A stretch of DNA of 64,000 nt from Chrysomallon squamiferum (GCA_012295275.1 CM022679.1:29946001-30010000), one strand, 5' to 3'; positions 2,381-61,964 are shown, numbered from the stretch's first letter. The notes: a model not told the origin generated them from the sequence alone. Numbers and translations are program-made.

Positions 2381-5300
2381 ATGAAGACAGCTGTAATACT
2401 CGTTCAGTTTGCGATTCTTCTTCAACTGTTTGGACAAGGGAACAGTTCTTGTCCTGTGTGTACAAATTTGGACAATTTCAAACATCTAATTGAGTACAAC
2501 ACTAGTTCTTCAAGCACGTTTCTTATGTTCGGAGACTTCGGACTACTACGATGTGTTCAGCAATGTCTGTTCAGAAGAAGATGTCAGAGCATCAACTTTG
2601 ACATTACCACGAACATTTGTGAACTAAACCAGGAACGTAACAGCAGTCTGCAATTTAAAGATGGAAGTATTTACTCTGAAATACAGAACTGGCCGAGGGT
2701 ATGTAAATTAGGTTTCTTTGTAGGTTACAGAAATGTATCACATGGATTAAAACAGTATGTATATCTAAGAGTTTATTGTGTGTGCATAACGTGTATATCT
2801 GTGTTTATGAACGTATGTCCATCCGTGTATATGTCTATATGTCTGAATGTGTGTAGATAATTATAACAAATATACATATTTACATATATATATATATATA
2901 TATATATATATATATATACACATACACATATACATTTACATATACATATATATATGTGTGTATAAAGATTGTGTGCGTGTGAGTTTTCCTGTGAGTATTG
3001 TGGCATAACTGTTTGACATTACCACGAACATTTGTGAACTAAACCAAGTGAATAGTGCTGAAGTAAAGTTTAGAAAAGAAATTATTTTTACTGAAATAAA
3101 GTTATGGCCAAAGGTAGGTGAAAATCATTTGTGTTGTTAGTTGGTATAGCGAGAGATTTAAAACAATATAGTTTGAGTAATTAACGTAGTTGATATTACT
3201 TTTTGTTTTAAAAATTTGAAAATAATATATTTATTTCTTCATTTCTGCGACTTTCCCTTCATTAAGATATTCAGACAATTCATATAATCTTCAGGCAATG
3301 AAAAGTTTATTTAACTCGTATTATTCGCACCAACCTGTTAATTTACTGAAGTAATAAAATCTCTGATATTTCACTATTTCAGAGACTTGCCCTTCTGTGT
3401 GAGAATCGCAGATGTGAAAACGGTACAGTCTGTACAATTAATGGAAAAACAACAAACTGCAGTACAGGTACAAAAGCACAACTAACTTGTTAAAAGTAAA
3501 TGTTATTAATTATAGTAATAAATACCAAGATATCGAAAGAAGGAGATCATCAGTTAGAAACTAAATATTGAAAATTAATTCAGAACAGCAAAGACCAGAA
3601 AGATCAAATAATTACACAACTGTACCTCCTGCTTCTTTTTCTCTTTGTTTCTCTGTTTGTCTCTGCTGTTTCTATTTCTGTTAGTGGTCATCTCTCTCTC
3701 TCTCTCTCTCTCTCTCTCTCTCTCTCTCTCTCTCTCTCTCTCTCTCTCTCTCTCTCTCTCTCTCTCTCTCTCTCTCTCTCTCTCTCTCTCTCTCTCTCTC
3801 TCTCTCAACGTACATTTACACAAAGATTAACCTGCACCCATTTTTTCCTTCATCAGATCCCTCACCCTTGGATAAAGGCTATACCAAGTCGCTGAATCTC
3901 TCGTTTTTTTACAAGTTACACCCAGAAAATAAAAATTTTGAGGATGCTAGGAGAACATGTTTAAATGAAGGGGCACAACTGATAGAAATTAAAACTGCCG
4001 AGAAAAATAAATTAATCAAAGACGTTATTAACGGTAAGAGAAAATTATAAATGATACACATTTTCAGTAATTATAAGTTTTGTAAAGATTCTACACAAGA
4101 CGGGATGCTTTTTTTTTTTTCATAGAAAATTTAATATGGGTATACTAAAAGATTTAACATTTCAGTTATAAATCATATTTTTTCTGTTGTCATTTTGTAT
4201 TTTGTCAAATAGACGTTTTGCTGTTATTTTGAAGTGAGAAGTGTACTGAAGGAAATCTTAAAAATGAAACTGTATTCACTGTAAACGATGGTATCATGCT
4301 TTCTTATAGTTGTATAGTTGTCTGTTTAGCTCTTATGTTTAGTTGTGTCATGTGTGTTGTGTTGTACAGTGTTGTGCCATGTTTTGTTGTGTTGTATAGT
4401 GTTGTGCCATGTTTTGTTGTTTTGTACAGTGGTGTCATATTTTGTTGTGTTTTATAGTGTTATGTCACGTTTTGTAGTGTTGTATAGTATTGTGTCATGT
4501 TTGTTGTGTTATGTAGTGTTGTGTCATGTTTGTCGTGTTGTGTAGTGTTGTGTTGTGTAGTGCTGTGCCATGTTTTGTTGTGTTGTATAGTGTAGTGCCA
4601 TTTATTGTTGTGTCATGTTTGTTGTGTTGTATAGTGTTGCGTTATGTTTTGTTGTGATGTTCAGTATTATGTCATGTTTGTTGTGTTGTATAGTGTTGTG
4701 TTATGTTTTGTTGTGATGTACAGTATTATGTCATATTTTGTTGTGTTGTATAGAGTTGTGTCGTGTTTTATGATGTCCAGAAATGTTATTTTTTGTCGTG
4801 TTCCGTCATGATTTGTTGTACTGTATAGCGGTGTTGTGTTTTTATTTAGTTACGCTGTGTTTTGTCATATAATGTTATGTTATTGTTGCGTTGTGTGGTG
4901 AAGTGTCATATTTTATTGTGTTGTATAGTGTGTCATATTTTGTTGTGATGTGTAGTTTCTTCTCATGTTTTGTTGTGTTTTTTGTGTTGTGTTCCTATTT
5001 TACTGTGTTATGTTTTGTCCTGTTGAATACTGTAAATTTGTATCATGTTTTTTGTGTGGTTATAGTGTCGTGTTTAATCGCATTATCTTGCTATGTGTTG
5101 TATCAAGTTTGTTCTTTTTTAATGGCTGTATTAGTTTTTGTGTTTTCTTGTGTTGTGTAATGTTGTGTCCAATTGTTTAATGTAGTGGTTTTTTTAAACA
5201 TTAATATACACCTGTGTATATGAAACTGTTTGTGTTTTCAATTCGTGTATTGGGTGGCATCAACAAATATTTTATTTTATTGTATTATATTTTTTTGTAT

Positions 5301-5671
5301 TTTGTCAACCTTTTTTTTTTTTTTTTGTTGTTTCTTTCTTGTGTTTTGTTGCGTGGCATCATGTTTTGTTGTAATGAGCTGTGTTTAAGTGTTGTTGTTT
5401 TTTTAAGAAATTATTATATTTGAAATTTTACTTAGCGGTGGATTCAAAAGTTCAAAAATGCGTGACGATTGGTGCCTCTGATATTCTCAATGAAGGTGTG
5501 TGGCGATGGAATTCATCCGCGGAGAATCTGACTTACGCAGACTGGGCTGAAAATGAACCCAATGATGGCGGTAACAATGAAGACTGTGCAGAGATGTGTA
5601 AATCAAACAGTCCGTCGTGGAATGGTTTTAGGTGCAGAATCCAGCAGCCGTTCATTTGTGAGATAGCCTAA
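2381..5671 (+). CDS. G1: secreted PAN/Apple + Cys-rich + C-type lectin protein, 271 aa; exons 2381-2698, 3383-3467, 3857-4033, 5436-5671
   Basis: Hydrophobic leader MKTAVILVQFAILLQLFGQG. PAN pattern CVQQC..CQSINF..CEL. Exon 2 reads CENRRCENGTVC..NC. CTLD motifs ARRTC, IGASD, WRW, EPN, EDC, WNG, FICE. All introns are GT-AG and the exons sum to 816 nt in frame. Confidence 0.92.
3012..3113 (+). pseudogene. Intronic duplicate of the last 34 codons of exon 1, with its own GTAGGT donor (G1)
   Basis: Reads FDITTNICELNQVNSAEVKFRKEIIFTEIKLWPK then gtaggt; parallels 2597-2698. Confidence 0.88.
3690..3806. repeat. (CT)n tract ~50 nt upstream of the exon-3 acceptor; equivalents in G3, G6, G7, G8, G9
   Basis: Seen directly here and at ~15299-15383, 42060-42162, 48578-48720, 54507-54720, 60467-60651. 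Confidence 0.95.
4340..5000 (+). repeat. Degenerate ~30 bp TG-rich minisatellite in intron 3 of G1
   Basis: Unit approximately tgttgtgtcatgttttgttgtgttgtatag. Confidence 0.85.
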
Positions 5672-59525: not shown

Positions 59526-61964
59526 ATGAAGACAGCAGTAATACTAATTCAGTTTGCGATTCTTCTTCAACTGTTTGGACAAGGAAACAGTTCTTGTCCT
59601 GTGTGTACAAATTTGAACAATTTCAAACATCTAATTGAGTACAACACTTGTTCTTCAAAGCACGTTTCTTATGTTCAAAGACTTCGGACTACTACGATGT
59701 GTTCAGCAATGTCTGTTCAGAACAAGATGTCAGAGCATCAACTTTGACATTACCACGAACATTTGTGAACTAAACCAGGAGAACAGTGCTGACTTAAAGT
59801 TTAGAAAAGGAATTATTTTTACTGAAATAAAGAAATGGCCAAAGGTAGGTGAAAATCATTTGTGTTTTTAGTTGGTATAGCGAGAGATTTAAAAAATATA
59901 CATTTTGAGTAATTAACGTAGTTGATATTACTTTTTGTTTTAAAAATTTGAAAATAATATATTTATTTCTTCATTTCAGCGACTTTCCTTCATTAAACTA
60001 TTCAGTCAGTTATCTCGTACAATATTTAGACTATGAAACGTTTATTTAACTCGTATTGTTCGCATATCTGATATTTCACTATTTCAGAGACTTGCCCTTC
60101 TGTGTGAGAATCACAGATGTGGAAACGGTACAGTCTGTACAATTAATGGAAAAACAACAAACTGCAGTACAGGTACATAAGCACAACTAACATGTTAAAA
60201 CTAAATGTTATTAATTATAGTACATTAAGGAATACCAAGATATCGAAAGAAGGAGACAGTCAGTTAGAAACTAAATGTTATTAATTATAGTACAGTAAGG
60301 AATACCAAGATATCGAAAGAAGGAGACAGTCAGTTAGAAACTAAATATTAAAAATTAATTCATAACAGCAAAGACCAGAAAGATCAAATAATTACACAAC
60401 TCTCTCCTCCTGCTTCTTTTTCTCTTTGTTTCTCTGTTTGTCTCTGCTGTTTCTATTTCTGTTCATCTCTCTCTCTCTCTCTCTCTCTCTCTCTCTCTCT
60501 CTCTCTCTCTCTCTCTCTCTCTCTCTCTCTCTCTCTCTCTCTCTCTCTCTCTCTCTCTCTCTCTCTCTCTCTCTCTCTCTCTCTCTCTCTCTCTCTCTCT
60601 CTCTCTCTCTCTCTCTCTCTCTCTCTCTCTCTCTCTCTCTCTCTCTCTCTCCCTCAACGTACATTTACACAAAGATTAACCTGCACCCATTTTTACCGTG
60701 ATCAGATCCCTCACCCTTGGACATAGGCTATACCAAGTCGCCGAATCTCTCGTTATTTTACAAGTTACACTCAGAAAAAAAAACTTTTGTGGAGGCTAGG
60801 AGAACATGTTTAAAGGAAGGGGCACAACTGATAGAAATTAAAACAGCCGAGAAAAATAATTTCTTCAAAGGCGTTATGAGAGGTAAGAGAAAACTGTAAA
60901 TGATAAACATTTTTAGTAATTATGATTTTTGTCATAATTCTGCAGCCAGAGAGGATGCTCAGAATATTTTTTCTTTTTTCATAAAAAAATTTTAATATGG
61001 TTATACGAAAAGATTAAACACTTCTGTTATAAATCATTACAGCTCATTATATTTTTTTTTTTTTTTTCTGTTCTCATTTTCTATTTTGTCAACTAGACTT
61101 TTTGGTGCTTATTAAAATCATTTTGAAGTTAGAAGTATATACAAGGCAGAAATTTAAAAATTAAAATTATTTTCACTGTGGTATCGTAGTGTCATGTTGC
61201 ATATTGTTGTGTCGTGTATTGTTGTGTTTTCTGTGTTGTTTTCTTCTTTTGTTGTGCCATCTTTTATCCTGTTGTGTATGGTATAGTTTCATCATATGTT
61301 TTGTTTGAATGTTTTGTATTATATCGTGATGTATCTTTTATTTGTGTTGTATAGTGTCGTATCTACCTTACTTTCTTTGTTTCCTTGCATTATCTTATCA
61401 AGTTTGCTCTTATTTTTTAGTTATGGCTGCATTAGTTTTTGGTGGGTGTTTTTGTGTTCTATAATGTCGTATCTACATTACGTTCTCTGTTTTCTTGTAT
61501 TATCTTGTTAGGTGTTCTATAATGTCGTATCTACATTACGTTCTCTGTTTTCTTGTATTATCTTGTTAGGTATTGTATAATGTCGTATTTCTGCTTTCTT
61601 TGGTTTTATTGTGTGGCATCATGTCTTGTTGTAGTGCGTTGTGTTGCGTCATAGTTTACGTGAATTTTTCTCTTGTTTTTGGATATCACTGATATCATTT
61701 AATATCAAAATATTATATTTAAAATTTTACTTAGCTGCGGATTCATACGCTGGAATGATGATTGGTGCCTCTGATATTATAAAGGAAGGTGAGTGGCGAT
61801 GGAATTCATCCGGCGAGAGACTCAGTTACACAGACTGGTCTGAAAATGAACCTAATAATTTTAGAAATAATGAAGACTGTGCAGCAGTGTGGAAATCATT
61901 GAAACTGAAGTGGAATGATTTTGATTGTAAATACAAATTGACGTTTATTTGTGAAATTTCCTAA
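59526..61964 (+). CDS. G9: near-identical copy of G7 with a 1-nt insertion in exon 1 (pseudogene or sequencing error); exons 59526-59844, 60088-60172, 60706-60882, 61735-61964
   Basis: ttcaaagcacg at ~59657 vs ttcaagcacg in all other G1/G7-type copies makes exon 1 319 nt; otherwise intact. Confidence 0.7.

What the first reader, a model, noticed from the sequence alone, without database searches (positions are those of the whole stretch)
2381..61964. Nine-gene cluster of secreted PAN/Apple-(4-Cys module)-C-type lectins with a diversified sugar-binding repertoire
Seen: nine paralogs share one exon plan (318 or 333, 85, 177, 227-236 nt; phases 0/1/1), yet the Ca2+/sugar loop differs: G1 EPN+WNG, G2 QPN+WND, G3 EPN+WND, G4 QPD+WND, G5 LPD+WND, G6 EPS+WND, G7-9 EPN+WND. 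Known: EPN selects mannose/GlcNAc-type and QPD galactose-type ligands in CTLDs. PAN domains mediate protein or glycan contacts, and PAN-3/CW+CTLD pairings occur in nematode clec genes. Inference: a lineage-specific, rapidly evolving family of bifunctional recognition proteins (immune, mucus, venom or biomineral role), with a conserved PAN module and a variable lectin head. I do not recognise it as a named family.
Basis: partly seen in the sequence, partly recalled or inferred. Interest (0 to 1): 0.85.

Follow-up and report, generated by a model that had tools for sequence, protein, structure and literature searches.

The report
Mosaic snail lectin gene cluster
A likely snail genome carries a tandem cluster of six intact and three broken genes for predicted secreted proteins that join an apple-fold domain to a C-type lectin domain, a pairing common in molluscs; the copies have likely swapped pieces with each other and likely serve to recognise microbes.

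Summary
The cluster is real and all nine motifs are as reported. Only six copies (G1, G3-G7) have intact four-exon frames. G2 is a pseudogene. G8 and G9 are near-copies of G7 with one-base homopolymer frameshifts, probably assembly errors.

Exon 1 is a PAN/apple domain (Pfam and fold), exon 2 a weakly FOLN/EGF-like four-cysteine module, exons 3-4 a C-type lectin domain.

The architecture is not lineage-specific. A Gigantopelta aegis protein and a Crassostrea virginica protein share it, and the signal-PAN-4Cys front end carries many other heads in molluscs. The scan noted an oyster PAN+CTL pair before.

'Conserved PAN, variable head' holds for identity but not for selection. Silent divergence differs sharply between exons of the same gene pair, which points to gene conversion or patch exchange. 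dN/dS in PAN is no lower than in exon 4, and both show tentative positively selected sites.

Best reading: secreted Ca2+-dependent pattern-recognition lectins under birth-and-death evolution. Sugar specificity, tissue and splicing were not shown. I found no paper naming the family, but the library lacks the main shellfish-immunology journals.

The parts
2381..5671 (+). G1, intact, 271 aa; exons 2381-2698, 3383-3467, 3857-4033, 5436-5671; EPN..E..WNG (lacks the WND aspartate)
2597..3011 (+). G2-like patch in G1 (3' part of exon 1 plus about 310 nt of intron), bounded by a 35-nt exact repeat at 2597-2631 and 3012-3046
3012..3113 (+). orphan intronic half-exon of G7 type (PAN C-terminal part with its donor site, no acceptor)
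8164..10456 (+). G2, pseudogene: exon 1 8164-8470 (8-nt deletion), exon 2 not found, exon 3 9662-9837 (1-nt deletion), exon 4 10224-10456; QPN..Q..WND
12907..17360 (+). G3, intact, 271 aa; exons 12907-13224, 14046-14130, 15434-15610, 17125-17360; EPN..E..WND
13675..13776 (+). orphan intronic half-exon in G3
22485..30352 (+). G4, intact, 276 aa; exons 22485-22817, 22942-23026, 23999-24175, 30117-30352; QPD..E..WND
24182..29956 (.). 28-bp minisatellite, about 202 copies, filling 5775 of the 5941 nt of G4 intron 3
36041..38163 (-). G5, intact, 273 aa, inverted; exons 38163-37831, 37706-37622, 36644-36468, 36267-36041; LPD..E..WND
40776..44247 (+). G6, intact, 271 aa; exons 40776-41093, 41749-41833, 42212-42388, 44012-44247; EPS..E..WND
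41390..41491 (+). orphan intronic half-exon in G6
47623..50026 (+). G7, intact, 269 aa; exons 47623-47940, 48200-48284, 48774-48950, 49797-50026; EPN..E..WND
53566..56017 (+). G8, near-copy of G7 with a 1-nt homopolymer deletion in exon 3 (exons 53566-53883, 54128-54212, 54774-54949, 55788-56017)
59526..61964 (+). G9, near-copy of G7 with a 1-nt homopolymer insertion in exon 1 (exons 59526-59844, 60088-60172, 60706-60882, 61735-61964)
62521..63995 (+). spacer of a further ~5.95-kb G7-type unit, 95-96% like the G8-G9 spacer; a tenth copy may follow outside the window

Best explanation
This is a tandem cluster of gastropod-like genes for predicted secreted proteins in which a pan-molluscan signal-PAN-4Cys front end carries a C-type lectin head; they likely bind microbial surface sugars through a calcium ion and likely act as soluble pattern-recognition lectins (agglutinins or opsonins in mucus or haemolymph), and the cluster likely diversifies by duplication, loss and piecewise gene conversion. 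Shown: gene structure, domain identity, PAN fold, the spread of the architecture across molluscs, unequal silent divergence between exons, one pseudogene. Inferred from CTLD biochemistry (recalled): the EPN/QPD-type tripeptide, the following glutamate and WND hold Ca2+, which binds two sugar hydroxyls. G3 and G7-9 keep the full mannose-type set and G4 the galactose-type set; G1, G5 and G6 have altered sites with weaker or shifted binding expected. Inferred: there is no collagen or obvious coiled-coil neck, so the PAN-4Cys unit probably supplies a second binding surface or self-association, giving avidity or a link to an effector. Inferred: G1, G3 and G6 got the C-terminal part of their PAN domain from a G2-like donor, leaving the old half-exon stranded in intron 1.
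For: Hydrophobic N-terminus and no later hydrophobic segment in 6 of 6 intact proteins (a hydropathy scan, not SignalP). PAN_1 and Lectin_C above Pfam cut-offs. The G1 exon-1 model has pLDDT 87.6 and matches apple domains: SML-2 E 3.8e-4, rmsd 1.2 A over 63 columns; kallikrein; TgMIC4. The G. aegis relative's model gives Z 10.8 to SML-2. G7 exon 4 matches Ca-dependent lectins in the PDB, including codakine, MBP-A and mincle. The same front end carries other recognition heads: among 72 representative hits, Sushi 10, GON 9, CTLD 5 (3 above cut-off), galectin 1, SRCR 1, fibrinogen 1; F5/8-type C and EGF in oysters. Silent differences per site: G4-G5 0/49 in PAN versus 28/55 in exon 4 (P 4e-10); G1-G4 1/20 in exon 2 versus 27/50 in PAN (P 1e-4); G1-G6 5/111 in exons 1-3 versus 12/47 in exon 4 (P 3e-4). 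About 178 substitutions among G1, G3, G6 and G7 without a stop, against about 10.6 expected if neutral (crude estimate). M2a beats M1a in exon 4 (LRT 8.3 and 12.5), and 0 of 52 null simulations reach 8.2. Flagged exon-4 sites flank the EPN loop and follow WND. Expanded bivalve CTL families are mostly expressed in gill and gut and respond to stimuli (PMC10140915 Results).
Against: No binding, expression or splicing data for these genes. Average omega is not distinguishable from 1 in any exon of the four close paralogs, which relaxed constraint would also give. The site tests use my own code on 4-6 sequences, and conversion breaks their single-tree assumption: the 5' PAN fit degenerated to omega 99. 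The closest named relatives have EPQ/WVN and EPQ/WIN sites, and one is auto-named perlucin-like. C-type lectin domains occur in the shell proteomes of both peltospirid snails studied (PMC11871041, one passage). Motifs predict specificity poorly in bivalves.
Confidence: 0.55

Rival explanations
1. The proteins are perlucin-like biomineral matrix components: the lectin head binds Ca2+, chitin or glycoprotein scaffold and the PAN unit binds matrix proteins.
For: The G. aegis paralog P0002 is auto-named perlucin-like. CTLDs are reported in peltospirid shell proteomes (PMC11871041 passage). PAN is listed among domains of phosphate-mineralising proteomes (PMC13425148 passage).
Against: Rapid turnover, a pseudogene and apparent selection around the sugar site fit a changing biological ligand better than a mineral. 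The automatic name rests on CTLD similarity only. Neither passage names a PAN+CTLD protein.
Confidence: 0.2
2. The cluster is specialised for recognising or managing chemosynthetic symbionts of a vent snail, rather than general defence.
For: The best named relative is from G. aegis, 55% identity. The G. aegis paper proposes that PGRPs, TLRs, FBGs and C-type lectins help acquire and keep symbionts (PMC7895826 passages).
Against: The same architecture exists in oysters. The host's identity and lifestyle are inferred only from protein similarity. No gene here could be tied to the expression rows in that paper's supplement.
Confidence: 0.12
3. The array is largely redundant and drifting: the motif variety reflects relaxed constraint, and G8-G9 are either real decayed copies or assembly artefacts.
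For: Omega about 1 in all exons of the four close paralogs. G2 is dead. G1, G5 and G6 have non-canonical sites. G8 versus G9 differ by 3 substitutions and 14 one-base indels in 3.7 kb.
Against: No stop in about 178 substitutions (P about 3e-5, crude). All core cysteines, WND-type tryptophans and splice sites are kept in six genes. Across all six genes omega is below 1 in exons 3 and 4.
Confidence: 0.13

Closest known systems
Gigantopelta aegis LOC121374454 (P0001, uncharacterized, 274 aa) and its perlucin-like paralog (P0002)
   Same: Colinear signal-PAN-4Cys-CTLD with the same junction motifs; 62-63% identity in PAN to G1, G3, G6 and G7; the G2 lectin domain groups with them, support 88/92.
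   Different: EPQ/WVN and EPQ/WIN sugar sites; only 23-33% identity in exon 4; only two such proteins were found in that species; no function known.
Uncharacterised mollusc PAN_1 + Lectin_C proteins (Crassostrea virginica P0099; ESM Atlas clusters of 69, 88 and 326 members with PAN_1 on 51%, 26% and 39% of members)
   Same: P0099 has the same order: PAN, 4-Cys module after the WP motif, CTLD.
   Different: About 23% identity to P0001; long-form CTLD; automatic names only (aggrecan-like, Fc-epsilon-receptor-like); no family description found.
Nematode CW(PAN-3)+CTLD clec genes (class IV, 16 in C. elegans; PMC5297725 passages)
   Same: PAN-type module plus CTLD in a secreted lectin.
   Different: PAN_1, not PAN_3, scores here. 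The 4-Cys module is extra. Common ancestry was not tested, so independent assembly is possible.
Gastropod VIgL lectins (FREP, CREP, GREP; PMC9334734 passage)
   Same: Design logic: one N-terminal module combined with fibrinogen, C-type lectin or galectin heads.
   Different: The N-terminal module here is PAN plus 4-Cys, not IgSF. No evidence of somatic diversification.
Apple-domain lectins SML-2 (PDB 2yil, 2yio) and TgMIC4 (4a5v, 2ll4)
   Same: Best fold matches for exon 1; entry titles show galactose or lacto-N-biose complexes.
   Different: 8-17% identity; kallikrein and factor XI apples score within 1 Z unit; sugar-binding residues were not compared.

Membership tests
C-type lectin-like domain (PF00059) | Profile score above the curated cut-off and four core cysteines | tested here: met
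   9 of 9 exon-4 copies score 30-42 bits against a cut-off of 22.6; cysteines listed
Ca2+-dependent carbohydrate-binding CTL (site 2) | EPN or QPD, following Glu, and WND all present | tested here: inconclusive
   Complete in G3, G4 and G7 (and G8-9); altered in G1 (WNG), G5 (LPD), G6 (EPS) and G2 (QPN, Gln). The residue roles are recalled
Ca2+-dependent carbohydrate-binding CTL (site 2) | Measured Ca2+-dependent sugar binding | not testable with these tools
   needs recombinant protein
PAN/apple module (PF00024) | Profile score above cut-off, C-x3-C-x5-C-x11-C core | tested here: met
   6 of 6 exon-1 copies tested score 24.7-27.6 bits against a cut-off of 21.4; four cysteines invariant in 58 aligned sequences
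PAN/apple module (PF00024) | Apple fold | tested here: met
   G1 exon-1 model pLDDT 87.6; 7 PDB matches at E<=0.001, all apple domains
FOLN / EGF-like half module (PF09289) | C-x4-C-x5-C-x8-C spacing and profile score | tested here: inconclusive
   Spacing present; FOLN 15.4-15.9 bits against a cut-off of 21.1 in 2 of 3 exon-2 copies; TILa also weak, 17-18.8 against 27; no fold match covers the module
Nematode CW-CTLD (clec class IV) | PAN_3/CW domain | tested here: not met
   No PAN_3 match at E<=1 in 6 of 6 exon-1 copies
CREP / VIgL | N-terminal IgSF domain(s) | tested here: not met
   Exon 1 folds as apple, and no Ig family matched
Collectin | Collagen region and coiled-coil neck | tested here: not met
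   No Gly-X-Y repeat in the six spliced proteins
Perlucin (shell CTL) | Presence in shell matrix and effect on CaCO3 nucleation | not testable with these tools
   needs proteomics and assay
Mollusc signal-PAN-4Cys-CTLD group (unnamed) | PAN ending in a WP motif at a phase-0 intron, then the 4-Cys module, then a CTLD | tested here: met
   6 intact genes, P0001 and P0099. The module follows WP in 47 of 88 fetched proteins with the motif; 36 of the other 41 end within 53 residues, as read-through into that intron would give

The most novel reading that the evidence does not exclude
The signal-PAN-4Cys front end is an unrecognised pan-molluscan adaptor that folds as one unit and parallels the Ig part of FREPs, CREPs and GREPs. 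It would define a 'PAN-lectin' superfamily with interchangeable heads (C-type, F-type, galectin, fibrinogen, SRCR, GON). This locus builds a two-surface repertoire by exon-scale and sub-exon conversion, with a now-dead gene (G2) as donor of PAN patches, to sort symbionts from other microbes in a vent snail.
Probability: 0.2. Interest if true: 0.65.

Novelty: new member of a known kind. Interest (0 to 1): 0.3.

Why it matters
Tandem, fast-turning C-type lectin clusters are expected in molluscs, and this domain pairing already sits in databases in hundreds of copies, so the cluster itself is ordinary. Two things give it modest value. First, the PAN-4Cys front end recurs with many recognition heads across gastropods and bivalves and seems to lack a description. 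Second, the six intact paralogs are a small natural panel (EPN, QPD, LPD, EPS, WNG) on a nearly constant scaffold, suitable for testing how non-canonical motifs set sugar specificity and whether the PAN unit binds a second ligand.

Tried and rejected
- Own genome: none is held, so family size outside the window is unknown.
- Expression and splicing: no RNA holder was listed. Three RNA runs laid on G7 exons 1-2 gave only short intronic matches, which is no evidence either way. G4, G5 and the exon 3-4 junction were not examined with reads.
- G9 frameshift: run X1 (kind not on record) covers 30 of 30 bins of that stretch and lists no insertion at the matching place. Contigs drop variants and X1 differs from G7 at many sites, so this settles nothing. 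Contig depth was not used as copy number.
- G2 exon 2: tblastn and blastn-short over the 1190-nt intron found nothing above chance.
- Full-length fold of P0001: the lectin half had pLDDT under 50 and Foldseek gave no match at E<=0.001, so domain packing was not inferred. The 4-Cys module got no fold match.
- Positive selection in the 5' part of PAN: the fit degenerated (omega 99) and was not used.
- One clade of window genes for PAN: not rejected, p-AU 0.33, and not shown.
- Rfam on 1-24000 only: 0 matches.
- No other protein-coding gene was evident among long ORFs (by eye).
- Alternative use of the intronic half-exons: rejected, since they have no acceptor and read-through from exon 1 meets a stop.
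- Venom role: no evidence; the named relatives are limpet, abalone, oyster and vent snail.
- Literature: nine searches found no paper on a mollusc PAN+CTLD family. Word searches for PAN or apple in PMC10140915, PMC12842671, PMC9334734, PMC8878817 and PMC11871041 found no such use. PMC12549020 mentions PAN/apple only in cnidarian Polydom. The figures and supplements of PMC10140915 were not seen and may list this architecture.
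Full report
What is there. The window is AT-rich (about 30% GC) animal DNA full of microsatellites. Exon mapping gives six intact four-exon genes of 269-276 aa: G1, G3, G4, G6 and G7 on plus, G5 on minus, all with GT-AG introns in phases 0/1/1.

The three broken copies. G2 has an 8-nt deletion in exon 1, a 1-nt deletion in exon 3 and no detectable exon 2, so it is a pseudogene. G8 and G9 lie in ~5.95-kb tandem units about 97% like that of G7, and each has a single one-base homopolymer indel. 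Between these units one-base indels are about as common as substitutions or more so: G8-G9 14 versus 3, G7-G8 14 versus 11, G7-G9 8 versus 9. Of these 36, 35 lie in runs of three or more bases. Between G1 and G3 there are 4 indels, none in such runs, against 36 substitutions. That profile is what long-read consensus error gives (recalled), so the two frameshifts are probably artefacts, but this was not settled. The first bases of the window match the DNA just downstream of G2, and the last 1.5 kb match the G8-G9 spacer, so more copies may lie outside.

Domains. Exon 1 encodes a hydrophobic leader and a PAN_1 domain above Pfam's cut-off. Exon 2 is a C-x4-C-x5-C-x8-C module with sub-threshold FOLN and TILa scores. 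Exons 3-4 form a short-form CTLD. The full Ca2+ site-2 set is present in G3, G7-9 (EPN) and G4 (QPD) and altered in G1, G5 and G6. A review of bivalve CTLs lists many such variants and shows that EPN or QPD often fails to predict the ligand (PMC12842671, passages and section 6).

Relatives. The only protein found by the longer-length search with exon 1 (1 of 94 candidates) is G. aegis LOC121374454, 55% identical. It is colinear through all four exons, which supports the splice model indirectly, since it is itself an annotation. The host is therefore likely a gastropod near the peltospirid vent snails (inference). The exhaustive search gave 72 proteins. Pfam shows the same PAN followed by Sushi (10 of 72), GON (9), CTLD (5, three above cut-off), galectin, SRCR or fibrinogen (1 each). 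Eight of ten looked up carry names: Haliotis, Patella and Gigantopelta. A profile search added oyster proteins with F5/8-type C, EGF or CTLD heads, including C. virginica P0099 with this exact order. The 4-Cys module follows the PAN's WP motif in 47 of 88 fetched proteins that have the motif. The Atlas lists mollusc PAN+CTLD clusters of 69, 88 and 326 members and aligns the PAN-4Cys part as one unit, TM 0.80-0.81 over about 110 residues, to mollusc PAN/Sushi and PAN/fibrinogen clusters. The architecture is thus pan-molluscan. In a lectin-domain tree (12 rows; G8 and G9 left out) G2 joins the G. aegis pair, and one clade of the seven window genes is rejected, p-AU 0.034; for PAN it is not rejected. 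Only the recent expansions (G1/3/6/7-9 and G4/5) look lineage-specific.

How it diversifies. Identity does fall from PAN to exon 4 (G4-G5 94% versus 56%; G1-G6 87% versus 60%), but silent sites fall with it. G4-G5 differ at 0 of 49 silent sites in PAN and 28 of 55 in exon 4. G1 and G4 differ at 1 of 20 in exon 2 but 27 of 50 in PAN. Different parts of a gene pair therefore have different ages, as conversion or segment exchange gives.

One such event is visible. G1, G3 and G6 carry a ~415-nt patch (3' part of exon 1 plus intron) homologous to G2; G6 and G2 differ at 2 of 100 nt in the exon part, although exon 4 of G2 is only 33% identical to that of G1 in protein. The patch is followed by a stranded G7-type half-exon, with a 35-nt exact repeat at both ends in G1. 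Homology to G2 stops exactly at that junction. I infer a G2-like donor and a G7-like recipient; the direction is not proven.

Selection. Omega among G1, G3, G6 and G7 is 1.05-1.24 for PAN, 2.1 for exon 2, 1.05 for exon 3 and 0.91 for exon 4, none different from 1. Across six genes it is 0.77, 1.5, 0.39 and 0.57. About 178 substitutions produced no stop where about 10.6 were expected (crude), so the genes are maintained. Site models favour a class with omega above 1 in exon 4 (LRT 8.3 and 12.5; 0 of 52 null simulations reached 8.2) and in PAN (16.8 and 9.4). These come from my own code on 4-6 sequences, with G2, G8 and G9 left out, and conversion can inflate them. The fair reading is that both surfaces vary. 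Exon 4 is still the most diverged part against G. aegis (23-33% versus 46-63% for PAN).

Mechanism. Most likely (0.55) these are secreted lectins that bind microbial glycans through Ca2+ at the CTLD, with the PAN-4Cys unit adding a second contact or self-association, since no collagen is present; spare cysteines in several copies could link chains. Bivalve CTL expansions are mainly expressed in gill and gut (PMC10140915: abstract, Results and figure legends). The G. aegis genome paper proposes that C-type lectins help manage symbionts (PMC7895826: passages and supplement rows). A shell-matrix role (0.2), a symbiont-specific role (0.12) and drift (0.13) remain open. Expression, splicing and binding were not shown.

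Novelty. PAN+CTLD is described in nematodes as CW+CTLD (PMC5297725 passages). Nine searches found no description for molluscs, but subscription journals are missing from the library. Verdict: a new member of a known kind, interest 0.3. The undescribed PAN-4Cys cassette is the part most worth following.

Noticed in passing
window 3012-3113, 13675-13776, 41390-41491: Stranded G7-type half-exons in intron 1 of G1, G3 and G6 still have open frames and their donor sites but no acceptor; probable relics of a patch insertion from a G2-like gene.
   Followed up: yes
window 22942-23026 versus 3383-3467: Exon 2 of the distant G4 type is 86% identical to G1 with 1 of 20 silent sites changed, while flanking introns and exon 3 are far diverged: a conversion tract apparently confined to the exon, or unusual nucleotide constraint.
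   Followed up: partly
window 24182-29956: A 28-bp minisatellite of about 202 copies fills almost all of G4 intron 3; the same intron in G5 is about 200 nt.
   Followed up: no
window 22138-23520 and 38511-37152: G4 and G5 5' regions form a 1.4-kb inverted repeat, 92% identical, about 14 kb apart, which could mediate inversion or conversion.
   Followed up: partly
run X1, loose end at window 47864: A G4-like exon-1 sequence that differs from G4 at 2 and from G5 at 3 of 30 bases (compared by eye): an allele or a further paralog outside the window.
   Followed up: no
G1 and G3 exon 4; G3 and G7 exon 1; G5 exon 3; G6 exon 4: Extra cysteines: a possible additional pair in the G1 and G3 lectin domain (C202, C248) and single spare ones in G3 and G7 (C42), G5 (C142) and G6 (C202), candidates for interchain links.
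   Followed up: no
P0009, P0014, P0017, P0021, P0031, P0035, P0040, P0042, P0053: Nine proteins (those looked up are abalone) pair this front end with a GON domain, otherwise known from ADAMTS9/20 (recalled); possibly an undescribed family.
   Followed up: no
window 30962-31402: 27-bp minisatellite, 16 copies, 98% matches, between G4 and G5.
   Followed up: no
window 4-247 and 501-2068: 95% matches to 10650-10893 and 10913-12483 downstream of G2, suggesting a duplicated (G2-like + G1-like) unit and another G2-like gene left of the window.
   Followed up: partly
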